Positions 43,563 to 53,656 of a stretch of DNA of 64,000 nucleotides are shown here, piece by piece. The DNA comes from an uncultured Gammaproteobacteria bacterium (GTDB lineage: Bacteria > Patescibacteriota > Patescibacteriia > Magasanikbacterales > GWA2-37-8), in contig CAZEEW010000001.1 of NCBI GenBank assembly GCA_964511375.1, forward strand, positions 6,512 to 70,511. The letters run 5' to 3'. The position numbers and the translations under genes are program-made. The notes beneath the pieces were generated by a model. It saw only the letters and a program-made list of their open reading frames with translations. It had not been told where the DNA came from and made no database searches. Every line of letters begins with the position of its first letter. Positions within the stretch are counted from its first letter, which is position 1.

Positions 43563-43952
43563 TTATTTAAGCCAAGAGCTTTTCTTTAATGCTTCTTTTA
43601 ATAACTCTTTAAGCGCCCCCTCGCCATCAAACCCCAAAGAACTTAGGTAATTTACCACCTGGCCTCTAGTTATGGTTTCTGGCTTTTCGTTTACGTTTTC
43701 TTCTCCAGTAAAAACATTGGCGTGATCAAATTCCCAGTCTTCGCTCTTCTTCCATCTCTTACCCTGTCCAACATATTTAAATCCCAAACAATAATTTTCT
43801 CCCCTTCTTTGCGCCTTTATTTCAAAATTCAAGCTGGCTTTTTCTCCCCCGTCTCTTGGCAACAGCAGGTCAGCCAAAACCCCAGGCGACAATTCCCTTT
43901 TTAAACTAGCTGGACTTCTATAACGCTCATGCTCGCTCATATTATAAGACAA
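43563..43952 (-). CDS. Hypothetical protein (129 aa)
   Basis: ORF only. Confidence 0.35.
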   Translation of the reverse strand: MSYNMSEHERYRSPASLKRELSPGVLADLLLPRDGGEKASLNFEIKAQRRGENYCLGFKYVGQGKRWKKSEDWEFDHANVFTGEENVNEKPETITRGQVVNYLSSLGFDGEGALKELLKEALKKSSWLK

Positions 43953-44044
43953 ATAAAGTATAACACAAAAAGTAAAGAATTAAAAAATACCTCAATCACT
44001 TGAAGTATTTTATGTTCCGCCAAGTACCCGGTTACCCTTAGACA

Positions 44045-44330
44045 ACAACTTATTATTATCTAAGGGTTCGACCGAGTACTGCGTTGGTCTCCCCCTTATT
44101 CTCATGGTTCCTCCTCCGCTCTCTCTTGAACTTCTTCTCTGACGGTGACCGTGGGCCACCGCCAGCACACCAGACGCCTGGCCCCCTCGACAAGGAGGGC
44201 CGTGCCGGCCAGGAAGGCCAGCAACACATAGGCCCCACCGCCGGCCGGGTCAACGAAAAACACCGTCATGTCTTCCCCCTCCCACGCACGCGCGCGGAAC
44301 ACAAAATGATAACAAATCTAAAATGATTTG
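44045..44330. other. GC-rich island (about 65% GC versus about 40% background) with extensive self-complementarity; candidate structured RNA or foreign DNA fragment
   Basis: Local composition and long imperfect hairpin (GACGGTGACCGTGGGCC...GGCCCCACCG...CACCGTC) read directly. ORFs here on both strands overlap and look compositional. Confidence 0.35.
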
Positions 44331-44389
44331 TCCAGTGGTGCGGGAACAACAAGAGAAGATCGTAATTAAAAACATAAAATTTAAGAATT

Positions 44390-44523
44390 TGTATACACTA
44401 GTCTATACAAACTGTGGATAAGTGTGTGCATATTTGTGTATAAATGTGTATAACTTAAAATATTTTGTACAACTTTTTCTCTTAAATTAGCAAAAATAAA
44501 TTTTGTATACACTAGTGTATACA
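44390..44523. repeat. Two copies of a 20-bp palindrome TGTATACACTAGTGTATACA (44504..44523 perfect; 44390..44409 one mismatch) bracketing a DnaA-box TGTGGATAA (44413..44421) in an AT-rich spacer
   Basis: Read directly. Copies are 114 bp apart. Confidence 0.6.
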
Positions 44524-44601
44524 AACACACAAGACTTTTTTGCCTGTTTTTGTTTATTTTTTCTCTTGCTTTAGCTAAAAATAATATAATTTAGTCGACT
44601 C

Positions 44602-44630
44602 TTGACGACAGCAGCGCCCTGTGCTATAAT
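44602..44630 (+). promoter_or_regulatory. Consensus sigma70 promoter TTGACG-17-TATAAT
   Basis: Read directly. Drives the non-coding stretch upstream of the dksA-like gene. Confidence 0.55.
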
Positions 44631-44636
44631 ATATTT

Positions 44637-44935
44637 GTTAGTTCATTGAAAACCACCTCCGAACTGCGACAAAAGAACACGGATTTACAACAGTCCTGAA
44701 AAAATACAGGATAGTGGCAAATCCGTACTACTTCTCGGGTAACCTCATAAACTTTATAGCTAGCGCGTGCCTCTTGTGCACCAGCTGGCACCGAGGAAAT
44801 ACCCACATAAGCGGTCGGAGAACATTCTGCTCAAGCGATGAGCGTCGCCCCAGCCGGGGCTTTAAGTTCTCGCCAGCAGTTTTTTCAAGGGCGAGACCTT
44901 AAAACAAAAATAGCGGGTCATCCGCCCTTTTTTTA
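44637..44935 (+). ncRNA. Candidate structured non-coding transcript or long structured 5' leader (about 300 nt) ending in a hairpin plus T-run
   Basis: No plausible ORF (only an Arg/Ser-rich 62-aa frame). Several nested hairpins (ACGGATTT...AAATCCGT; GCCCC-agcc-GGGGC; CTCGCC...GGCGAG). Terminal GCGG-gtcat-CCGC followed by CCTTTTTTT. Confidence 0.35.
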
Positions 44936-45047
44936 TTGCAAAAACCCGTTTGACAAGCTTATATAAATAAGATAGCATATATCCAATCTGGGGCTTTTTA
45001 AGCTCACAACGGCAGTAAACCCCGTATTTTGATCACTAATATCCAGT

Positions 45048-45434
45048 ATGTCTAAACAAGTAAAAAAAGTTGTAACTGCTTTCCCAATGGATTTCATTAC
45101 CAAAATTACTGAGGTTCTAAACAAGGAAAAGGCTCGCTTAGAAAAGGAGCTGGGAACCATATCTGCGGGTGGAGACAGCGCTAACTTTCCAGAATATGGT
45201 GATAAAGAAGATGAGAACGCTAACGAGGTGGCCGAGTACGCAGCCAACCTAACAATTGAAGAGAGTCTGGAGCGATCATACCGCGACGTCGTTAAGGCGC
45301 TCGCTCGCTTAGAAAAGGGTGAATATGGCGTGTGCCGATATTGTGGCAAGCCAATCGATTCTCGCCGCCTACTTGCCAGACCAACTTCTAGCGCCTGCGT
45401 AGATTGCAAAAAAACCATTACTCAAGAGGTTTAG
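45048..45434 (+). CDS. dksA: DksA/TraR-family C4-type zinc-finger protein
   Basis: Coiled-coil N-terminus and C-terminal CRYCGKPI...CVDC four-Cys motif. Confidence 0.65.
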   Translation: MSKQVKKVVTAFPMDFITKITEVLNKEKARLEKELGTISAGGDSANFPEYGDKEDENANEVAEYAANLTIEESLERSYRDVVKALARLEKGEYGVCRYCGKPIDSRRLLARPTSSACVDCKKTITQEV

Positions 45435-45438
45435 TTAT

Positions 45439-45903
45439 ATGAACGCTAAGGGGCCCGCTTCCGTATATTACTTGTTTTTAAGCGGGCTTTTTTTAATTTT
45501 CGACCAGTCTCTAAAATATTTTGCTTTGCAAAATTTTGATTCCGCACACACATATCTTGGTTTTTTCGGCTGGAAGCCTTTCTTAAACCCCGGCGTTGCT
45601 TTCAGTTTGCCAGTACCACAGCCAATTATTCTCCTTTTTACTATTCCTGTGCTGATTTTTCTGGCATGTCTAATACTAAGGGCGTGGAACAGCAAAACCG
45701 CCCCTCCAACGCACGTGCTTGGACTGTCCTTGGTCTTTTTTGGCGCCCTGTCCAACTTAATTGATCGTCTTATTTTTAAACACACCGTCGACTATCTCCT
45801 TTTATATACTGGCGTTTTCAACGTTGCTGACCTCATGATTATTGCTGGTTTTTTACTTTATCTTTGGATCTCGACCAAAAAGAGGGACGCTCAAAACATC
45901 TAA
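45439..45903 (+). CDS. lspA: Lipoprotein signal peptidase (signal peptidase II)
   Basis: Four TM helices with conserved blocks NPGVAFSL and FNVADL. Confidence 0.8.
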   Translation: MNAKGPASVYYLFLSGLFLIFDQSLKYFALQNFDSAHTYLGFFGWKPFLNPGVAFSLPVPQPIILLFTIPVLIFLACLILRAWNSKTAPPTHVLGLSLVFFGALSNLIDRLIFKHTVDYLLLYTGVFNVADLMIIAGFLLYLWISTKKRDAQNI

Positions 45904-45933
45904 CAAAAAAGACCCCTGTAACGAGGTCTTTTT
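45904..45933. terminator. Bidirectional terminator (GACC-cctgtaacga-GGTC with flanking A-run and T-run)
   Basis: Between lspA (+) and 45946..46554 (-). Confidence 0.5.
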
Positions 45934-45945
45934 AAATCTTGTATA

Positions 45946-46554
45946 TTATTTGCCAACGCGGCTAAGTTTGGTTTGGGGGTAAAAGATTTCGACTTTCAAA
46001 CGCTTAACACCAAACTTTCGGGCCTCGGCTTTTGAGGTGTCTAACCAGACATCCATGCGCCCAAATCCATAGCGAGCATTCATGCGGTCCTCAACAATGA
46101 ATTCTTTTTCCCCGTACAAACTTGGGATTTTAATTATGGTTCCAAAAGGTAGTCCGTTGGCTGCAATCATGCCGTCGTGTACCCGCTTGCCAGAAGCTGC
46201 AATAAAAGGATCGTCGTCGGTCTGATCGGGAGTGGAGGTATAAGCAGTAATAACTGCGTTAATAACTCTGTCTGGTTGACGTATGCTGTCTTTTTCGCTA
46301 TCATTAGCAAAAAAGATGTTTTGTCCGTTTTCCCAAGCCAATTCCTTGGCCAAAATGTTATTGATTAGCTCTTTTTCGGTTCTTTTAGCAGAAAAAACCA
46401 GCTTTTTATTGCTTTGACCTTGGGCCACAACTGGGTTCAAAAGGTTCAATAAAAAGGCTAAAACAAGGGTATAGTGGACAACTAAGGTAACCGGGTTCTG
46501 GATAAATTTTGGCTTAAATAAGCTCATAATTGGTAAATTAAAAAAGATAACCAT
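45946..46554 (-). CDS. 3D-domain (MltA-like, Asp-rich) cell-wall-binding protein
   Basis: Signal peptide. C-terminal TSTPDQTDDDP...ANGLPFGTIIKIP...GRMDVWLD pattern of 3D domains. Confidence 0.6.
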   Translation of the reverse strand: MVIFFNLPIMSLFKPKFIQNPVTLVVHYTLVLAFLLNLLNPVVAQGQSNKKLVFSAKRTEKELINNILAKELAWENGQNIFFANDSEKDSIRQPDRVINAVITAYTSTPDQTDDDPFIAASGKRVHDGMIAANGLPFGTIIKIPSLYGEKEFIVEDRMNARYGFGRMDVWLDTSKAEARKFGVKRLKVEIFYPQTKLSRVGK

Positions 46555-46681
46555 ATTACTAGGCTATCCTCTTCAATCAACGCAATACTATACCACAAAA
46601 TACTAAAATTGTCAAGGGTGACATGTTAAGATATAATTTAAGAACATTAATTACTTTCCGGCCCAACAAGCCAACAGATTT

Positions 46682-49516
46682 ATGCCAATTCCTTCTTTAA
46701 GACGTCGTGAGACACGTAGCTACGGTGAGGTTAAAGATAAGTTTCGCCCCCGTTTGGTTTCTAAGTTAAAAAGCCGAACTTTTTGGAAAAAAGCCCTTCT
46801 CTACGGTGGGGTTGTTGGAGCCGGTGGCCTGATTCTTTTTACTGGTTTCGTCTTTTGGGTTAGCCGAGAGTTACCCGACCCGAACCGTCTAAGTGAAAGA
46901 CAGGAACAAAGCACTAAAATCTACGACCGAACCGGTACCCACCTCTTATATGAAATTTTTCAAAACCAAAAAAGGACCATGGTTGAACTTGACCAAATGT
47001 CACCATGGATTCCCAAAGCCACGATTGCTATTGAAGATAAACGCTTCTACGAACACGGTGGTATCCGTATTCAAAGTATCTTGCGTGCCCAATTTAGCAA
47101 CCTTATCGGCCGACGCGAAGGTTCTGGTGGGGCCTCCACCCTAACTCAACAGTTAATAAAAAACGCCATTGTTGGTGACGATCACTCTTACTACCGTAAA
47201 ATAAAGGAGGCGATCTTGGCCATTCGCCTGGAAAGAAAATACAGCAAAGATGAGATTTTAAAAATGTATTTAAATGAGATTCCTTATGGATCCACCAACT
47301 ACGGTGTTGAGGCAGCCAGTCTTTCTTATTTTAACAAAAACGCCAAAGACCTAGACCTTCCGGAATCAGCTGCTTTAGCCGCCCTTGCCAAGGCTCCTAG
47401 TCGCTATCTTAACAATCCCGAAGCCCTGAAAACCCGTCGCGATTACGTTCTTTTGGTTATGAAAGAACAGGGCATGATTAACGAAGAAGAATATTCTAAA
47501 GCCAAGGAGGCCGTACTCACACTTAAGAAGAACGCTGGCTCAATGCAGGCTCCCCACTTTTCGTTATATGTAAAACAATTGCTGGCCGAACAATTTGGTG
47601 AAAAAGTTGTCGATACTGGGGGATTAAAGGTCGTCACTTCCTTAGACTTTGAAAAACAAAAGGAGGCGGAAAAAATAGTAAAGGAGGAGGGTGATCGTCT
47701 GGCCAAAGAAGCAAACGCCAACAACGCCTCTTTGGTTGCTCTTGATCCTAAGACCGCCCAGGTTTTAGTTATGGTTGGGTCTCGGGACTACAACAATGAC
47801 GAAATCGACGGTCAATTCAACGTTGCGGTGTTGGGAAAACGCCAGCCCGGCTCATCTTTTAAACCCTTCGTGTATACTTACGCCTTTGAAAAAGGCTACA
47901 CTCCAGAAACCATGCTCTACGACGTTCTCACTAATTTTGACCGTCGTACTGGTGGAAACTACACTCCAAAAAACTTCAACGGCAAAGAATATGGACTAGT
48001 AACAATGAGAAAGGCCCTCCAAGGATCTTTAAATATTCCGGCGGTAAAAACGCTTTACCTGGTTGGCTCCAAAGAAACTATTGAATTTGCTAAACGCTTT
48101 GGCTATACCACTTTTACCGGCGATTACGGTTTAAGTTTGGTGTTGGGTGGCGCTGAAGTAAACCTACTTGAACACACCAATGGTTACGCTACACTGGCTA
48201 ATCAAGGAAAATACCATTCGCCTGTTAGTATTTTGAGGGTTGAGGATCGCGCCGGTAATACTATGTATGAATGGAAAGAATCCGAAGGAACTGAGGCGAT
48301 TAAGCCAGAGATAGCAGCTATTACATCCAATGTACTATCTGATGACGCGTCACGTTCATATGTTTTTGGTCGTAACGGCAACCTTACCTTACCCGGGCGT
48401 ACCGTGGCAGCAAAGACCGGCACAACGAACGATAATAAAGACGCCTGGACCCTTGGTTACACCCCAAGCATTGCTGCTGGTGTTTGGGTGGGCAACACCA
48501 CCCCCGCCCCGATGAAGGGTGGCGGCAATGCATTAGCAGGCATCATTTGGAACAAGTTCATGCGTTTTGCGACGAAAGATGCTCCTGTCGAAAAATTTAC
48601 TGAACCAAAAACGGAAGACATTACTAAACCCATCTTGCGGGGCGGAGAAGGGGGTTTAAAAATTAAGATTAATCGCTTAACTGGTCGTGTAGCAGCGTCG
48701 TCAACTCCAGAACACCTAACAACTGAAAGAACATACCTGCTTCCCCACGACATCCTTCATTATGTCAAAAAAGATGACCCTCGGGGCGATTATCCAACCA
48801 ACCCGAGCGACGATCCTCAATATGAGAACTGGGAAACAGCGTTGCAAAGCTGGGTCGAACGCAACCGAAAAAAAGGTATTGAATTTACTCTTGAAGAACC
48901 TCCAACTGAAGTTGATGCCCCGCTTGACCCGGCCCTTGCTCCACGCCTCGAGGTGATTCATCCGCAACCTGGGGAAACCTACACTTCCCGCGACCTTCTT
49001 TTCGAAGTTAGGGCTGATTCCCCACGCGGCGTCCACCAAGTAACTTACTATATCGATAACAATCAAGTTGCTCTTTCTGGGAGCTTTCCTTTCAGCATAA
49101 CTTACCACGCTGAAACCCTGGCTCCCGGAGAACACTCTCTGATTATTCTTGCTGAGGACGATCTTGGTAACTACACCGAAAAAGAAATTAAGTTTAATTT
49201 AAGTGCCGCTTTTGAACCAGCCAACATTTCCTGGATGGACGGTGGGTCAATCGAGGTAAGCGGCTCTGATTTTCCGCGCGGCATGTATTTAAACACTTTC
49301 CGCTGGGAAGATATCCAGGAAGTTAAGATCTATCTTGTTGGCAACGGCAATCGAAGGTTAATTTATACCTTTAACCACAGCGAGCCTCTCCAAAACAACA
49401 AGCTCTTTTTCGCGTGGAGAACCTTTCCTGGACCAGGCGAGCATACTCTGTCGGCAGAAATGTCTGACAATGCCGGTCGCATCGTCACAAAGGACCTGGG
49501 GGTGAAAGGCAGGTAG
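46682..49516 (+). CDS. mrcA: Class A penicillin-binding protein (PBP1A: glycosyltransferase GT51 + transpeptidase) with about 230-aa C-terminal extension
   Basis: IEDKRFYEHGGI (GT51), SSFKPFVY (SxxK), SLN, KTGTT. Confidence 0.85.
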   Translation: MPIPSLRRRETRSYGEVKDKFRPRLVSKLKSRTFWKKALLYGGVVGAGGLILFTGFVFWVSRELPDPNRLSERQEQSTKIYDRTGTHLLYEIFQNQKRTMVELDQMSPWIPKATIAIEDKRFYEHGGIRIQSILRAQFSNLIGRREGSGGASTLTQQLIKNAIVGDDHSYYRKIKEAILAIRLERKYSKDEILKMYLNEIPYGSTNYGVEAASLSYFNKNAKDLDLPESAALAALAKAPSRYLNNPEALKTRRDYVLLVMKEQGMINEEEYSKAKEAVLTLKKNAGSMQAPHFSLYVKQLLAEQFGEKVVDTGGLKVVTSLDFEKQKEAEKIVKEEGDRLAKEANANNASLVALDPKTAQVLVMVGSRDYNNDEIDGQFNVAVLGKRQPGSSFKPFVYTYAFEKGYTPETMLYDVLTNFDRRTGGNYTPKNFNGKEYGLVTMRKALQGSLNIPAVKTLYLVGSKETIEFAKRFGYTTFTGDYGLSLVLGGAEVNLLEHTNGYATLANQGKYHSPVSILRVEDRAGNTMYEWKESEGTEAIKPEIAAITSNVLSDDASRSYVFGRNGNLTLPGRTVAAKTGTTNDNKDAWTLGYTPSIAAGVWVGNTTPAPMKGGGNALAGIIWNKFMRFATKDAPVEKFTEPKTEDITKPILRGGEGGLKIKINRLTGRVAASSTPEHLTTERTYLLPHDILHYVKKDDPRGDYPTNPSDDPQYENWETALQSWVERNRKKGIEFTLEEPPTEVDAPLDPALAPRLEVIHPQPGETYTSRDLLFEVRADSPRGVHQVTYYIDNNQVALSGSFPFSITYHAETLAPGEHSLIILAEDDLGNYTEKEIKFNLSAAFEPANISWMDGGSIEVSGSDFPRGMYLNTFRWEDIQEVKIYLVGNGNRRLIYTFNHSEPLQNNKLFFAWRTFPGPGEHTLSAEMSDNAGRIVTKDLGVKGR

Positions 49517-49537
49517 CGAGACGGCCTCCCCATTAAT

Positions 49538-49978
49538 ATGTTTTCTTCAAAAGAAAAGTTTCTTCTTAAATTCACACTATTCGGCGCAATCACACTTTGC
49601 GTCCCCACCCTTCTCCTTATATTGTTGTTATCATTAAAACTAACTAGCCCAGAAGCCAACAGTTTTTATACCCTTCTTGGCGTCTTTTCATTGGTGGCCG
49701 GAATTACGTGGAACAAAATATATTTCCCCACCAACCTATTGAACCAAAAAAGAAATGGCCGCTTTTTACCATTTATATTTAATTGGTTTCTCTCTCCTGT
49801 GTTTGCCACAGTGGTTTCGGCGACCACTTACTGTGGTATATATTTTTGGACCGAAGATAGGGGAAATTTTTATAACTGGTTCTTAATTATTATCTTTATC
49901 TGTCTTGGTTCAATCAAATTCCTAAAAGACGTCTGGAATTTCCGTATTAATTTACCGAAGAAAAGACTGCCCCGATAA
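49538..49978 (+). CDS. Small polytopic membrane protein, hypothetical
   Basis: Four predicted TM helices. ORF only. Confidence 0.35.
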   Translation: MFSSKEKFLLKFTLFGAITLCVPTLLLILLLSLKLTSPEANSFYTLLGVFSLVAGITWNKIYFPTNLLNQKRNGRFLPFIFNWFLSPVFATVVSATTYCGIYFWTEDRGNFYNWFLIIIFICLGSIKFLKDVWNFRINLPKKRLPR

Positions 49979-50016: not shown

Positions 50017-51132
50017 CTACTGTCTGATCGGCATCACTATATACAAATAGCCATTTTCTTTAGGGGCCAACTCACAAGGGCTGTCGGCGTTTATAACACT
50101 CAGACTTACTTTTTCTGATTCAATATTATTCAAACCGTCCAATAGGTATCTGTGGTTTAATAAAACCCGCACTGTTTCTCCCTCAGCTTCCCCCTCAAGT
50201 TCTGATCGATAATCGCCGGTTTGTGTCGAAGTCGAGACTATTTCTAGTCCTTCATTTGGTTTAATAGTAAGGTGTACAGCATTTACTCCGCTGGTGGAAA
50301 ACAGGCTGGCCGCCTTTACCTCTTTAATGAGTTTATCTGTTTCCAATTCAATGCTGGCCTTAAAGTCCTTAGGAATAATTTGGCGGTAATCTGGGTATTG
50401 GCCCTCGATCAGCCGAGAAACCATTTGTACGTTGCCATAGTGCAACGCGACCTGACCATCTCCTATTAATACCCTGGCATTTTTTTCATTTTCTAAACTA
50501 TCTTCCAACGAAAGAATGCGGGAGATTTCTACCGCAGTTCTCCCCGGAACAATCACCTTCTTTTCTTCTTCTCCCTGAACTAGATTTATTTTCTTTTCTG
50601 CGAGACGGTAACTATCTGTTGCAGCCATTACCAACTTCTTCGTTTCAACATTAAAACCAAAATATACGCCTGACAGTTCCGGGCGAATATCGTTTTTGGC
50701 CGTGGCTGGAATTACCTGACTTAGACCTCTCTTTAGTTCTCTCGCCTCAACCACATAACCCGTTCCCTCATCTACAGATGGAATAATCGGAAAATCCTCA
50801 GCCGGTGTCCCTTTAATTTTGGTCGAAGATTTTCCACATTCTACTACTAATTCATTATCTTTTAATTCAAAACCTATTTTTTCTTCTCCCAATAGGTTAA
50901 TAAAATCTGCCAGGGTTCTAGCCGGCACGGTAAATGAACCAGGCGCCTCCGTAATCGCTCGAATATTTACAACCGTTGCCATTTCCAGGTTGGTTGCAAC
51001 TACCTCCACTTTTTGATCTTCTGCTTTTATTAAAACATTATTTAAAATTGGCAAATTAATATTTTTACCGGCCACCCCACTTACCAGCATTAAGGCCTTT
51101 GACATGTTCTCCTTAGTGCATGAAAATTTCAT
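50017..51132 (-). CDS. dnaN: DNA polymerase III beta subunit (sliding clamp)
   Basis: About 370 aa, three-domain clamp pattern. Position immediately downstream of dnaA. Confidence 0.85.
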   Translation of the reverse strand: MKFSCTKENMSKALMLVSGVAGKNINLPILNNVLIKAEDQKVEVVATNLEMATVVNIRAITEAPGSFTVPARTLADFINLLGEEKIGFELKDNELVVECGKSSTKIKGTPAEDFPIIPSVDEGTGYVVEARELKRGLSQVIPATAKNDIRPELSGVYFGFNVETKKLVMAATDSYRLAEKKINLVQGEEEKKVIVPGRTAVEISRILSLEDSLENEKNARVLIGDGQVALHYGNVQMVSRLIEGQYPDYRQIIPKDFKASIELETDKLIKEVKAASLFSTSGVNAVHLTIKPNEGLEIVSTSTQTGDYRSELEGEAEGETVRVLLNHRYLLDGLNNIESEKVSLSVINADSPCELAPKENGYLYIVMPIRQ

Positions 51133-51432
51133 ATGACTTCATTAAAGGTTTGTGTATTAATTATTTAAGTATATATATAAAGTAATAATAGTAATAATAA
51201 GGCTGTGGACAGTGGGGAGAATTTAGTTTTTACTCTAATCTTAGTATAAATATTATTAGACGACCCTGTGTATAAAATTGATATTTTCGATTTAACTTGT
51301 GGAAAGCTCACGCTCGGTGTGTATAAGATTGAATAATTTTTCTTCCATTGTTAATAACCAGCTGACTTGTCCATAAGTTATTAAACACTTACCAACAAGT
51401 TATTAACATATCTTTGCTAGCTTATAATTAAA
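51133..51432. promoter_or_regulatory. oriC: dnaA-dnaN intergenic oriC-like region: AT-rich unwinding element (51150..51200) plus DnaA boxes TGTGGACAG (51204..51212), TGTGGAAAG (51298..51306), TTGTCCATA (51367..51375)
   Basis: Boxes match TTATCCACA (or its complement) with 2 or fewer mismatches. AT-rich run TATATATATAAAGTAATAATAGTAATAATAA. Confidence 0.5.
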
Positions 51433-52827
51433 TCAAACATTATTAATATATAATCTCTGTTTAATTAATTCTAATTCTTGCTTTAATCTAGGATCGTTTT
51501 CAATTTCTTTCTCAATTTTTAAATAAGCATGCATGGCTGTGGTGTGATCCCGGCCACCTAATTCGTCGCCAATGGCTGGATAGGACATGTTTAACTCGCG
51601 CCGAAGCATATACATAATAATTTGTCGTGGGAAAGAAAGCTTCTTCTCGCGACTTTTACCTTTGAGATCTTCTAAAGTGAGATTATAAAACTCAGCGACC
51701 GACTGGATGAGTTGCAGAGAACTAACAGAGCGCTTTAAGGAAACACCGCCGAGGGTCGAAATAAGGCCTTTTACGGAATCGAGGGTGGGCTCTGAAGACT
51801 TAAGTTGGTGGAAAACAATAATCTTATTGAGCGCCCCCTCTAACTCGCGAATATTACTTTGAACATTGGTTGCAATATACTGTAAAATCTCCTGGGAAAG
51901 AGGAAAGTTCTTCTCTAAACTCTTTTTTTCTAAGATGGCGGCTCTGGTTTCGAAGTCTGGTGCAGCCACGTCTGCGATCATGCCCCACTCAAACCGAGAC
52001 TTTAAGCGGTCTTCTAGGGCTGGAATAGCTTTGGGTGGGCGGTCAGAGGTAATTAGGACCTGTTTATTCTGTTGGTGAAGCTCGTTAAAAGTGTGAAAAA
52101 ATGATTCTTGGGTACGATCTTTGCCGGCGATAAACTGGATATCGTCAATGAGAAGTAAGTCAATGTGGCGGTAGAGATTTTGAAATTCTTTAGCTGTTCC
52201 TTCTTTAACAGAGGAAATAAAGTCATTAGAGAACTTTTCGGCACTACAATACATTATGTTTAAATTTGGGTTTTTCTCAAGAAGAGAATTGCCAACCGCC
52301 TGTAAAAGATGGGTTTTTCCTAGACCAACCCCGCCGTAGATAAACAATGGGTTGTAGGCCTCTCCAGGGCGCGCTACAACCGCTTGGGCGGCGGCATAGG
52401 CCAACTCACTACCTTTACCCACAACAAAGCTCTCAAAGGTATATTTGGGGTTTAGAGGCAAGCTGCCGCTAACCGCCGGTGTGGGTTTAGTTTCTGAAGA
52501 GGTGGTTTGAGCGGGTAAGGACTCTAGTCCAGAAACTACGGTTGGGGCAGGAGGAAATAATGGTTCACTAATATTTTTAATATTTTCGATTTTATAATCC
52601 AGCTTTTTTATCGGCTTTCCAGTTATTCTTTCTAAAGATTTAATAATAAGAGCATGATATTTTTTTTCAATCCAGGCCTTATTAAAGAGGTTTGGTACGC
52701 AAATTATAACCTGGCCGTCTTGAATTGAAACAATACCAGTATTTTTAAACCAAGTAACAAAATTGGCTTTAGACATGGATAATTCAACCTCGGCTAAAAC
52801 CCCCTGCCAAATTTCCTGATTGGTCAT
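51433..52827 (-). CDS. dnaA: Chromosomal replication initiator protein DnaA
   Basis: AAA+ motifs GGVGLGKTHLL and LLIDDIQF. C-terminal DNA-binding domain. Confidence 0.9.
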   Translation of the reverse strand: MTNQEIWQGVLAEVELSMSKANFVTWFKNTGIVSIQDGQVIICVPNLFNKAWIEKKYHALIIKSLERITGKPIKKLDYKIENIKNISEPLFPPAPTVVSGLESLPAQTTSSETKPTPAVSGSLPLNPKYTFESFVVGKGSELAYAAAQAVVARPGEAYNPLFIYGGVGLGKTHLLQAVGNSLLEKNPNLNIMYCSAEKFSNDFISSVKEGTAKEFQNLYRHIDLLLIDDIQFIAGKDRTQESFFHTFNELHQQNKQVLITSDRPPKAIPALEDRLKSRFEWGMIADVAAPDFETRAAILEKKSLEKNFPLSQEILQYIATNVQSNIRELEGALNKIIVFHQLKSSEPTLDSVKGLISTLGGVSLKRSVSSLQLIQSVAEFYNLTLEDLKGKSREKKLSFPRQIIMYMLRRELNMSYPAIGDELGGRDHTTAMHAYLKIEKEIENDPRLKQELELIKQRLYINNV

Positions 52828-52919
52828 AGTTGTTTTAAAGTGTTTTTAAGTTATGTGAAAGTAATTTTAGCATAATCATAAGGAAAAACAAACTTTTCAG
52901 TGAGGAAAAGTGTATAATT

Positions 52920-52949
52920 TGTGGACAACTTGTGGATGACTGTGGATAA
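52920..52949. promoter_or_regulatory. Cluster of three DnaA boxes (TGTGGACAA, TGTGGATGA, TGTGGATAA) at 10-11 bp spacing upstream of dnaA; a divergent rpmH promoter TTGACT-17-TATAGT follows at about 52963..52991
   Basis: Read directly. Classic dnaA autoregulation/oriC arrangement next to rpmH. Confidence 0.6.
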
Positions 52950-53006
52950 CAGTTAAACAGTGTTGACTAAAGCCAAGAAATAGTGTATAGTATTCATACT
53001 TTAATA

Positions 53007-53186
53007 ATATCTTACTATGGCAACAAAGAGAACTTACCAACCAAAAAAGCGCAAGAGAGCAAAAACTCATGGCTTTAGAGCTAAAATGAAGACTCGACAG
53101 GGCCGTGCTGTTTTAAAGCGCCGTCGAGACAAAGGAAGAAAGAAGCTTACTGTTTCTGACGAAAAGAAGGGTAAACTAACCCGCAA
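53007..53186 (+). CDS. rpmH: 50S ribosomal protein L34 (59 aa, with about 13-aa C-terminal extension)
   Basis: [46 protein letters not shown].... Found by manual translation (below ORF-track cutoff). Confidence 0.8.
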
Positions 53187-53198
53187 AGCTCGCTAAAG

Positions 53199-53226
53199 CA
53201 AACCTTTAACACCCTGAATTCCCAGG
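53199..53226 (+). terminator. Hairpin plus T-run (CACCCTG-aattc-CAGGGTG TTTTTTG) between rpmH and rnpA, a terminator/attenuator
   Basis: Read directly. Confidence 0.6.
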
Positions 53227-53266
53227 GTGTTTTTTGTTGAAAATTGTGGTATAATGGCTTTGTTAT

Positions 53267-53656
53267 ATGTTACAAAAAGACAACCGACTAACTAAAGTTC
53301 GAGATTTTAATCTCTTAATGAAATATGGCTCCTGGATAAACGGCCGCCTTTTTAATGTTAAGGCTCTTGAGTTAGCCAAATTTGAGAACTATTTTCCAAA
53401 AATGGAAGATAAAGATAATTTTAAAAAACAGCTTAGAATAGCCGTAAATGTTGGTGTTAAAGTATCCAAAAGTGCAGTGAAGAGATATCGGCTGAAGCGA
53501 CAGGCGAGCGAAGTGGTTCGGCTGCTTCTTAAAGAAAGAAGTTTAAAAAATGGATATTATATATTGATTAATGCAAAGAGTGATGTGTTGGAAAAAGATT
53601 ATCCAGAAATTAGCGAAGAAATTAAATTATTATTAAAAAAGTCGGGTTTAATATAA
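53267..53656 (+). CDS. rnpA: Ribonuclease P protein component
   Basis: Basic about 120-aa protein at the conserved position after rpmH. The basic motif KRYRLKRQASEVVRLLL resembles the RnpA RNR-type region. Confidence 0.65.
   Translation: MLQKDNRLTKVRDFNLLMKYGSWINGRLFNVKALELAKFENYFPKMEDKDNFKKQLRIAVNVGVKVSKSAVKRYRLKRQASEVVRLLLKERSLKNGYYILINAKSDVLEKDYPEISEEIKLLLKKSGLI

What the first reader, a model, noticed from the sequence alone, without database searches (positions are those of the whole stretch)
44045..44330. Roughly 250-bp GC-rich island (about 65% GC) with long self-complementary arms in an AT-rich genome
Composition departs sharply from flanking sequence. On the plus strand GACGGTGACCGTGGGCC...GGCCCCACCG...CACCGTC can pair into a long imperfect hairpin with internal stem-loops (CCCTC-gacaag-GAGGG; GGCC-aggaa-GGCC). 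It contains CCAGGAAGG..AGCA, faintly reminiscent of SRP-RNA domain IV.

Predicted ORFs overlap on both strands. One, 44102..44302 (-), encodes a small hydrophobic high-GC-style peptide.

Possibilities are a structured small RNA (SRP-like or other), a horizontally acquired or chimeric fragment from a high-GC organism, or a degenerate intron or ribozyme.
Basis: seen in the sequence. Interest (0 to 1): 0.65.

Follow-up and report, generated by a model that had tools for sequence, protein, structure and literature searches.

The report
GC-rich gene for tiny membrane peptide
The GC-rich island is neither contamination nor an SRP-like RNA: it is a small, conserved minus-strand gene in a Magasanikbacteria (CPR) genome that encodes a 55-residue membrane peptide from a tightly folded mRNA built like a type I toxin message, though no antitoxin was found.

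Summary
The island is real. Window 44101-44300 is 66% GC against a 41% mean, z = 5.0, the top outlier in the window. An independent Logan assembly is 100% identical across it, so it is not an assembly artefact.

Three related Candidatus Magasanikbacteria lineages carry a GC-rich island at the same locus, between an LTD surface-protein gene and dksA. All share one minus-strand architecture:
- a sigma-70-like promoter;
- a 5' end that pairs with sequence just before the terminator;
- a G-rich Shine-Dalgarno site paired with early codons;
- a 35-55 codon ORF for a single-pass hydrophobic peptide;
- a conserved purine box and a 22-bp hairpin with compensatory changes;
- an intrinsic terminator.

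Coding is supported. Substitutions between two close lineages are conservative at the peptide level (permutation p = 0.0016). SD + start + ORF + TM segment appeared in 0 of 3000 shuffles per species.

GC3 stays at 0.69-0.86 although neutral sites between these species are saturated. The GC content is therefore maintained, not a foreign leftover.

No Rfam, Pfam, NCBIfam or protein homolog exists. The closest analogy is a type I toxin mRNA, but no antitoxin RNA was found. This is an orphan small-protein gene of moderate interest.

The parts
44306..44334 (-). Sigma-70-like promoter: TGGACA, 17 nt, TG-extended TATCAT. Predicted transcription start is near 44300.
   Evidence: scores it 10 of 12 matches with TG before the -10. 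The same site is found in L004 (TGGACA-17-TAATAT) and L005 (TTTACA-17-TAATAT). It aligns in A1.
44294..44300 (-). 5'-terminal arm GUUCCGC of a long-distance closing helix. Its partner is 44014-44020.
   Evidence: Inverted repeat I7. Pairing probability is 0.97-0.99 in W and 0.98-1.0 in L004. In L005 it is UUCUG/UAGAA, including a C-G to U-A double change, with p 0.5-0.7.
44270..44293 (-). 5' UTR: a short GC hairpin followed by the G-rich Shine-Dalgarno GGGAGGGGG (44275-44283), 5 nt upstream of the AUG.
   Evidence: Read from the sequence. G-rich SD-like runs lie 4-5 nt before the start codon in all four lineages.
44102..44269 (-). ORF for the 55-aa peptide MTVFFVDPAGGGAYVLLAFLAGTALLVEGARRLVCWRWPTVTVREEVQERAEEEP. 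It has an acidic N-flank, a hydrophobic segment at residues 11-27, and a basic/aromatic then acidic C-tail.
   Evidence: - ORF and composition. GC1/2/3 is 0.67/0.55/0.86 over the first 42 codons; background GC3 is 0.39.
- Hydropathy.
- Equivalent ORFs in L004, L047 and L005.
- Conservative substitutions between L004 and L047: p = 0.0016.
- SD + start + ORF + TM segment in 0 of 3000 shuffles.
44247..44257 (-). Anti-SD stretch inside codons 5-8 (UUUUUCGUUGACCC region), predicted to pair with the Shine-Dalgarno.
   Evidence: SD bases are paired with p 0.71-1.0 to codons 5-8 in W. The analogous pairing to UUCCC(G)UUU of early codons occurs in L005 (p 0.4-0.76) and L004 (in the MFE; ensemble about 0.45).
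44086..44097 (-). Purine box AAGGGGGAGACC, 4 nt after the stop codon. GGGGGAGACC is invariant in all four lineages. No start codon follows it.
   Evidence: Alignments A1 and A2. Role unknown.
44024..44079 (-). Conserved 3' hairpin: an 8-bp lower stem (GUACUCGG/CCGGGUAC), an internal loop UCGAA/UAA, and a 14-bp upper stem.
   Evidence: Across 3 species, 22 pairs with 98.5% of cells paired. Two pairs change on both sides and 4 change on one side while keeping the pair. Sliding the partner drops pairing to 35-42%. A 1-nt deletion in L004 puts a stop in the only frame that reads through it, so it is not coding.
44014..44020 (-). 3' arm GCGGAAC of the closing helix. Its partner is 44294-44300.
43980..44011 (-). 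Intrinsic terminator: a 12-bp AU-rich stem (AAAAUACUUCAA/UUGAGGUAUUUU) running into a U tract.
   Evidence: Inverted repeat I15 and the fold. Equivalent terminators are in L004 (found, 7394-7367) and L005 (ACACCCC/GGGGUGU plus U run).

Best explanation
The island is the body of a self-contained, roughly 320-nt minus-strand transcription unit (44334 to 43980). It encodes a 55-residue single-pass membrane peptide.

The mRNA is unusually GC-rich and folds so that three things happen:
- its first 7 nt pair with the 7 nt just upstream of the terminator, closing the molecule;
- the G-rich Shine-Dalgarno is buried in a hairpin with codons 5-8;
- a conserved 22-bp hairpin and a terminator cap the 3' end.

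The most likely working model is a stable mRNA that is translationally locked by default. Its hydrophobic peptide would be made only after the fold is opened or trimmed. This is the logic of type I toxin mRNAs such as hok and aapA.

Shown here: the gene, its conservation, the coding signal, the conserved 3' hairpin, and the maintained GC content. Inferred: the transcription start, the SD sequestration and 5'-3' closure (from folding predictions), and any toxicity. No antitoxin RNA was identified.

I put about 0.85 on 'real small membrane-peptide gene'. I put about 0.35-0.4 on 'toxin-like, translation-gated module'.
For: Real and native.
- An independent Logan contig is 100% identical over 43773-49929.
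- Synteny LTD / (hyp125) / island / spacer / dksA / lspA / 3D-domain / PBP is kept in L004 and L005. Both have GC peaks of 0.62-0.69 at the same place.
- A fourth variant was found in L047.

Shared minus-strand anatomy. Promoter, SD, ORF, purine box, hairpin and terminator are present across the lineages.

Coding.
- All four ORFs encode an acidic N-flank, a 17-aa segment with Kyte-Doolittle mean 2.0-3.1, and a polar tail.
- The 19 differences between L004 and L047 give BLOSUM 176, against 145 +/- 11 for randomly placed identical substitutions (p = 0.0016). V-to-I changes break a predicted hairpin but conserve the peptide.
- SD + start + ORF of at least 30 aa + TM segment appeared in 0 of 3000 dinucleotide shuffles in each of three species.

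RNA level.
- Full transcripts fold at z = -6.8, -6.2 and -8.1.
- 5'-3' helix p is about 0.98, and SD pairing p is up to 1.0.
- The 3' hairpin shows covariation.

GC is maintained. GC3 is 0.69-0.86 in all lineages against 0.40-0.45 in flanking genes. Meanwhile, 65% of four-fold sites differ in the PBP gene.

Literature.
- A non-translatable primary transcript, with SD/anti-SD hairpins and 5'-3' long-distance interaction, is their hallmark (PMC6733600).
Against: - No antisense or trans antitoxin was found. No plus-strand promoter is conserved in the unit. There is only a weak TTGCCT-17-TATTAT in the hairpin of L004, 8 of 12 by eye in W, and none in L005.
- There is no conserved complementarity to the neighbouring divergent RNA.
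- The peptide has no homolog in 5.8 billion or 1.84 billion protein sets, nor in Pfam or NCBIfam. Function is therefore purely by analogy.
- Only four lineages of one narrow clade carry it. Covariation statistics are therefore thin: 34 of 500 shuffles reach the observed score.
- The UTR+ORF part folds no better than expected for its composition: z = -2.3, -1.4, -2.1 and +0.7. The 'lock' rests on GC content and a few short helices.
- Transcription start, termination and translation are all predictions.
- A gene caller did not call the ORF on the Logan contig.
- Why GC is selected remains unexplained.
Confidence: 0.6

Rival explanations
1. An ordinary, non-toxic small membrane protein, for example an accessory or regulatory subunit of a membrane complex. 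It would be expressed constitutively from a stable mRNA. The folds would serve only mRNA stability and termination, and there would be no gating and no antitoxin.
For: Same gene evidence as above. No antitoxin was found. The gene is single-copy in the window and the loci examined. The UTR+ORF fold is not exceptional for its composition. Many bacterial small membrane proteins of this size are benign (review PMC10730256, listed; otherwise general knowledge).
Against: It does not explain the conserved 5'-3' closure and the SD buried with p up to 1.0. It does not explain the very rapid divergence of the peptide while the UTR elements stay conserved. It does not explain the maintained GC-richness. 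There is no conserved partner gene: the downstream hyp125 is absent in L005.
Confidence: 0.3
2. Primarily a structured regulatory RNA, or a dual-function sRNA. The conserved 5' end, purine box and 3' hairpin would be the functional parts. The ORF would be secondary or incidental to a GC-rich spacer.
For: UTR and 3' elements are far more conserved than the ORF. GGGGGAGACC is invariant and has no start codon after it. The hairpin covaries. GC is maintained at the nucleotide level, including third positions. Whole-transcript z is -6 to -8.
Against: There is no Rfam family. Peptide-level conservation holds between L004 and L047, while a predicted ORF-internal hairpin is broken by the same substitutions. 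SD, start, open frame and TM segment are kept in all four lineages despite sequence turnover, and appear in 0 of 3000 shuffles. The period-3 composition fits coding.
Confidence: 0.08
3. A fragment of foreign high-GC DNA, from recent horizontal transfer, contamination or an assembly chimera, carrying a chance ORF.
For: Composition is typical of a high-GC coding frame, with GC3 > GC1 > GC2. Other high-GC3 genes occur sporadically in Magasanikbacteria, some at this same locus in L010, L012 and L013.
Against: An identical independent assembly spans both junctions. The unit is present at the syntenic site in three other lineages with conserved host-like flanks inside the unit. Neutral sites are saturated between these lineages, yet GC3 is still high in all. 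No significant nucleotide or protein match exists to any high-GC organism, plasmid or phage.
Confidence: 0.02

Closest known systems
Type I toxin mRNAs with 5'-3' long-distance interaction (hok/Sok of E. coli plasmid R1; aapA/IsoA of Helicobacter pylori)
   Same: - A hydrophobic single-TM peptide under 60 aa with a polar/aromatic C-tail.
- A stand-alone unit with its own promoter and terminator.
- Predicted pairing of the extreme 5' end with the 3' region.
- The Shine-Dalgarno buried by an anti-SD lying within about 11-25 nt inside the ORF.
- A fast-evolving peptide.

Features as described in PMC2887945 and PMC6733600.
   Different: - No antisense or trans-acting antitoxin RNA was detectable.
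- There is no sequence similarity to any of the known toxin families.
- The gene is single-copy.
- It is 60-66% GC in a 41% GC genome, which is not a described feature of these families (my knowledge).
- It has a conserved post-stop purine box and a 22-bp 3' hairpin without a counterpart in those families.
- The host is a CPR bacterium. I know of no type I system reported there (my knowledge; T1TAdb lists 24 families from 218 species).
Dual-function small RNAs that also encode small peptides (SgrS/SgrT, RNAIII/delta-haemolysin, SR1/SR1P)
   Same: A short, highly structured transcript of a few hundred nt carrying a small ORF. Conserved non-coding parts flank the ORF.
   Different: No target or seed region was identified. 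There is no homology. Here the non-coding parts look like cis elements (closure, hairpin, terminator) rather than a trans-acting seed.
   Same: GC-rich relative to the genome. It has a hairpin with a GGAA-containing loop and a nearby AGCA on the plus strand.
   Different: No hit to any SRP model on either strand, even at E <= 10. The motif lies antisense to a conserved coding frame. The motif region is not conserved in relatives.

Membership tests
Type I toxin-antitoxin system | Small (under about 70 aa) hydrophobic peptide with a transmembrane segment and a polar/aromatic C-terminus | tested here: met
   Peptides of 55, 47, 47 and 35 aa, with 17-aa Kyte-Doolittle means of 2.0-3.1. The W tail is RRLVCWRWPTVTVREEVQERAEEEP. 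Criteria from PMC2887945.
Type I toxin-antitoxin system | RNA antitoxin, cis-antisense or trans-encoded, complementary to the toxin mRNA | tested here: inconclusive
   No conserved plus-strand promoter in the unit. The only candidate is a weak TTGCCT-17-TATTAT inside the 3' hairpin of L004. No conserved complementarity of 9 nt or more with the divergent neighbour RNA. Promoter scans cannot exclude an antisense RNA; RNA-seq is needed.
Type I toxin-antitoxin system | Translationally inert primary transcript: SD sequestered by an anti-SD and/or 5'-3' long-distance interaction | tested here: met
   Prediction only. SD pairing p is 0.71-1.0 in W, 0.4-0.76 in L005 and about 0.45 in L004. 5'-3' helix p is about 0.98 in W and L004, and 0.5-0.7 in L005 with one compensatory pair. 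Hallmark as stated in PMC6733600. Not tested biochemically.
Type I toxin-antitoxin system | Toxicity of the peptide on overexpression | not testable with these tools
   Requires expression experiments.
Type I toxin-antitoxin system | Sequence membership in a described toxin family | tested here: not met
   No Pfam or NCBIfam match at E <= 10 beyond noise. No protein homolog was found.
SRP RNA, 6S RNA, tmRNA, RNase P RNA, group I/II introns, or any Rfam 15 family | Match to the family covariance model | tested here: not met
   The gathering-threshold scan of the whole window gave only 7 tRNAs. The E <= 10 scan of 43900-45000 on both strands gave only microRNA/lncRNA noise. ARAGORN found no tmRNA.
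Horizontally acquired or contaminant high-GC fragment | Absent from the syntenic site of relatives, or matching a high-GC donor, or unsupported junctions | tested here: not met
   Present at the syntenic site in L004, L005/L044 and L047. No donor match. Junctions were reproduced by an independent assembly.

The most novel reading that the evidence does not exclude
The unit is the first type I toxin-antitoxin-like module, or a toxin-like dual-function RNA, seen in a CPR/Patescibacteria genome.

In this reading, an antisense RNA starts inside the conserved 3' hairpin. A weak TATTAT -10 lies in its loop. Its C-rich 5' part, GGUCUCCCCCUU, is the complement of the invariant purine box. That part would also pair with the near-identical G-rich Shine-Dalgarno region (GGGGGAAGAC in W) and shut off translation. 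The selected GC-richness would serve to keep the toxin mRNA stable and locked in an AT-rich, RNase-poor minimal cell.
Probability: 0.15. Interest if true: 0.6.

Novelty: new member of a known kind. Interest (0 to 1): 0.4.

Why it matters
Small proteins and regulatory RNAs of CPR bacteria are almost unexplored, and this gene is missed by gene callers. If the toxin-like reading holds, it would extend RNA-gated membrane toxins to ultra-small, host-dependent bacteria.

It also shows selection maintaining high GC content, third codon positions included, in one short gene of an AT-rich genome. That pattern is usually read as foreign DNA, and here that reading can be shown to be wrong.

Practically, GC-rich islands in AT-rich metagenome-assembled genomes should not be dismissed as contamination without a synteny check.

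Tried and rejected
- Rfam at gathering threshold and at E <= 10 gave nothing relevant. ARAGORN found no tmRNA.
- Peptide homology searches:
  - the word-indexed set of 5.8 billion proteins gave none;
  - full HMMER over 1.84 billion representatives gave one hit, P0003, which is a repeat-protein artefact summed over 8 stretches;
  - viral contigs gave none;
  - Pfam and NCBIfam gave none.
- blastn of the island against plasmids and phages gave only 28-36-nt chance matches, E of 0.09 or worse.
- An exact-pattern scan of JGI metagenomes for the hairpin motif returned only one contig, identical to the L005 lineage. A viral scan of an 18-mer found nothing.
- MITE or repeat idea: the island has no second copy in the window. 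The flanking A-rich direct repeat D3 is low-complexity.
- The neighbouring divergent RNA as trans antitoxin:
  - unrestricted duplex folding was uninformative and not better than shuffles;
  - no conserved complementary stretch was found.
- The hairpin region as coding sequence (QYSVEP... frame): rejected because L004 has a frameshift and stop there, and the stem covaries.
- Leader peptide or attenuator for the downstream hyp125 gene: rejected because L005 keeps the unit but lacks hyp125.
- Specific RNA structure within the ORF as the reason for the GC: z-scores are only -1.4 to -2.3, and +0.7 in L047. One predicted hairpin is broken by V-to-I substitutions.
- More distant Magasanikbacteria have no equivalent small GC-rich TM ORF at the locus.
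- The hyp125 neighbour gave no useful upstream context in its only distant homolog.

Full report
**Observation**

The window averages 41.0% GC. The 200-nt window 44101-44300 reaches 66% (z = 5.03). This is the highest value in 64 kb; the runner-up is a tRNA cluster at 58.5%.

The small stem-loops exist. The long-range arms GACGGTG/CACCGTC appear only in the plus-strand MFE. That fold is marginal against shuffles (z = -2.06, 6 of 200 as good). The minus strand folds better (z = -2.90, 0 of 200).

Nothing in Rfam 15 matches, either at gathering thresholds over the whole window (7 tRNAs only) or at E <= 10 over 43900-45000 on both strands. ARAGORN finds no tmRNA.

**Not an artefact, not foreign**

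- A Logan assembly of SRR5011273 (L001) is 100% identical to window 43773-49929, spanning both junctions of the island.
- blastn against plasmid and phage collections gives only chance matches.
- A scan of GTDB species genomes with the neighbouring 944-aa penicillin-binding protein places the window in Candidatus Magasanikbacteria (Patescibacteria/CPR). The closest relatives have 85% (L004) and 88% (L005) protein identity.
- Both relatives keep the gene order LTD surface protein / (hyp125) / gap / dksA-like / lspA / 3D-domain / PBP.
- Both have a GC peak of 0.62-0.69 at the equivalent place in the gap.
- A fourth variant, L047, came from the DksA protein cluster.
- The JGI contig L044 and several ENA/JGI contigs are identical to L005 in this region.

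**Anatomy**

Read on the minus strand, all lineages share one layout:

- Promoter. W has TGGACA-17-TATCAT with TG extension at 44334-44306. L004 has TGGACA-17-TAATAT and L005 has TTTACA-17-TAATAT.
- A predicted start at GUUCCGC.
- A short GC hairpin.
- A G-rich Shine-Dalgarno 4-5 nt before the start codon.
- An ORF of 55, 47, 47 or 35 codons.
- An invariant GGGGGAGACC box a few nt after the stop.
- A long hairpin beginning GCAGUACUCGGUCGAACC.
- In W and L004, GCGGAAC complementary to the 5' end.
- A terminator hairpin with a U run.

blastn aligns only the flanks of the unit between species. The ORF body has diverged beyond nucleotide recognition, yet stays GC-rich.

**Is the ORF a gene?**

- The first 42 codons in W have GC1/GC2/GC3 of 0.67/0.55/0.86. 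Long genes in the window have 0.49/0.37/0.39. No 42-codon window of those genes exceeds GC3 0.67.
- All four peptides have an acidic N-flank, a strongly hydrophobic 17-residue segment (Kyte-Doolittle mean 2.0-3.1) and a polar or basic tail.
- L004 and L047 are close enough to compare. They show 19 nucleotide differences in 45 codons. Eight are at third positions. The first-position changes are mostly V-to-I, I-to-L and T-to-S.
- The peptide BLOSUM62 score is 176, against 145 +/- 11 when the same substitutions are placed at random (p = 0.0016).
- The in-phase antisense frame scores equally but contains a stop. The plus-strand ORF frame scores 156.
- Three of the G-to-A changes break C-G pairs in a hairpin predicted inside the L004 ORF. 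Constraint there is therefore on the peptide, not on that helix.
- A Shine-Dalgarno, a start codon, an open frame of at least 30 codons and a TM-like segment never co-occurred in 3000 dinucleotide shuffles of the UTR+ORF segment, in any of three species.
- The frame that reads through the conserved hairpin is broken in L004, so the hairpin is not coding.

I conclude that the ORF 44269..44102 is a real small-protein gene. It has no homolog anywhere, and a gene caller skipped it.

**RNA level**

- Full predicted transcripts fold far better than shuffles: z = -6.79 (W), -6.24 (L004) and -8.14 (L005).
- In W and L004 the first seven nucleotides pair with GCGGAAC just before the terminator with probability about 0.98. 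L005 has a weaker UUCUG/UAGAA version that includes a C-G to U-A double change.
- The Shine-Dalgarno is predicted to pair with pyrimidine-rich early codons: UUUUUCGUUGACCC in W, and UUCCC(G)UUU in the others. Probability is up to 1.0 in W, about 0.75 in L005 and about 0.45 in L004.
- The 3' hairpin has 22 pairs, with 98.5% of cells paired in three species. Two pairs change on both sides and four change on one side while keeping the pair. Pairing collapses to 35-42% when partners are slid. With only three sequences the shuffle control is modest, 34 of 500.
- The UTR+ORF segment alone is only marginally more stable than its own shuffles: z = -2.3, -1.4, -2.1 and +0.7. Its stability comes from composition rather than from a specific conserved architecture.

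**Why GC-rich?**

Four-fold degenerate sites of the PBP gene differ at 65-66% between W and L004/L005, which is essentially saturated. A neutral foreign fragment would long since have drifted to the host's GC3 of about 0.4.

Instead GC3 is 0.75 (W), 0.74 (L004), 0.74 (L047) and 0.69 (L005). Flanking genes have 0.40-0.45. The amino-acid composition (Ala, Gly, Val, Leu, Pro, Arg) is itself GC-leaning.

The GC content is therefore maintained by selection at the nucleotide level. I infer selection for a compact, stable, poorly translatable mRNA, but this is not shown.

Other Magasanikbacteria carry unrelated high-GC3 genes at this same locus. L010 is an example: a 126-aa secreted protein with GC3 0.88, also followed by a long hairpin and terminator. 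That is unexplained.

**Mechanism and comparison**

The combination is as follows:
- a single-TM peptide under 60 aa with a polar/aromatic tail;
- a stand-alone unit;
- an SD/anti-SD hairpin;
- a 5'-3' closing interaction;
- a fast-evolving peptide with conserved RNA elements.

This matches what is described for type I toxin mRNAs (PMC2887945; PMC6733600).

The defining antitoxin RNA was not found. No plus-strand promoter is conserved. The divergent neighbour RNA shows no conserved complementarity. The invariant purine box after the stop codon resembles the SD region and has no start codon behind it; its role is unknown.

I therefore file the element as an orphan small membrane-peptide gene with a type-I-toxin-like mRNA architecture, not as a member of that class. 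The rivals are a benign small membrane protein (0.3), mainly a regulatory RNA (0.08) and foreign DNA (0.02).

**Distribution**

The hairpin motif occurs only in the W/L004/L047/L005 clade, both among the 40 genome loci and in JGI metagenomes. The next DksA relatives drop to 68% identity. Their loci lack an equivalent small GC-rich TM ORF.

**Verdict**

This is a new member of a known kind, a small hydrophobic peptide gene on a structured mRNA. Interest is moderate, at 0.4. It rests on the CPR host, the maintained GC anomaly and the possible toxin-like gating.

Noticed in passing
window 44602-44934 (+); homologs L004 8005-8297, L005 2411-2706, L006 6337-6662, L009 7811-8106, L010 5640-5969, L011 4105-4434, L014 509-809, L015 6347-6641, L016 4491-4818, L037 3044-3334, L041 6201-6498: A roughly 295-nt candidate structured RNA gene, divergent from the island and upstream of dksA.
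- It has its own strong promoter (TTGACG-17-TATAAT, 11 of 12 matches) and a terminator with a large conserved loop.
- It is conserved in 12 Magasanikbacteria loci, with motifs AAACUGCAAAAA, CGGGUAACCUC...GAGGAAAUACCC, AAGCGGUCGGA, CCCCGAAAGGGG and AAGGGCGAGACCUUAAAACAA.
- CG-to-UA covariation occurs in the GGUAACCUC/GAGGnnnUACC helix.
- MFE z = -6.06.
- No Rfam match at E <= 10.

It may be a new RNA family and is arguably more novel than the island.
   Followed up: partly
window 44340-44600: A 25% GC spacer between the two divergent promoters. It holds two 24-nt palindromes, TTTGTATACACTAGT(C/G)TATACAAA, at 44388-44411 and 44502-44525. It also holds a perfect DnaA box (TTATCCACA, 44413-44421, minus strand) plus two one-mismatch boxes at 44435 and 44445. 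The palindromes and DnaA boxes are conserved in L004, L005, L047 and L010. They are probably operator sites for an unknown regulator and DnaA.
   Followed up: partly
window 50017-53656: dnaN (50017-51132, -), dnaA (51433-52827, -) and rnpA (53267-53656, +) were identified by Pfam. A cluster of DnaA boxes lies at 52920-52949, with further boxes at 51267 and 51318. The likely replication origin therefore lies about 7-9 kb from the island. DnaA-box-like 9-mers are enriched in the window: 34 against 17 +/- 4 expected.
   Followed up: partly
L010 4726-5106 (-); L012 3575-5323 (+); L013 4117-5337 (-); also L004 17768-18436, L009 3967-4689 and L015 1074-1793, L041 520-1280: Sporadic genes with GC3 of 0.75-0.92 occur in 40-50% GC Magasanikbacteria genomes. 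Several sit in the same variable slot between the LTD gene and dksA. The L010 gene encodes a 126-aa protein with a signal-peptide-like N-terminus (GC3 0.88). Like the island, it is followed by a long AU-rich hairpin and a terminator. Whether these are imports or share the island's maintained GC is unknown.
   Followed up: partly
window 43563-43940 (-): An orphan 125-aa gene (hyp125) lies directly downstream of the island's terminator. It has no Pfam domain. Its only homologs are in L004 (54% identity) and an ENA contig L003 (43%). It is absent from L005, which keeps the island.
   Followed up: partly
L004 7418-7446 (+); window about 44031-44059 (+): A weak plus-strand promoter-like site sits inside the conserved 3' hairpin: TTGCCT-17-TATTAT, 9 of 12 matches in L004. 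By eye W has TTACCC-17-TATTAT, and L005 has none. If active, it would yield an antisense RNA beginning with the complement of the invariant purine box.
   Followed up: no
L049/L050/L053 1820-2158 (-), L051 1820-2206 (-): Public gene calls of 112-128 aa run through the hairpin and terminator of the L005-type unit. These look spurious. They are long open frames in GC-rich sequence, and the corresponding frame is not conserved in W or L004.
   Followed up: partly
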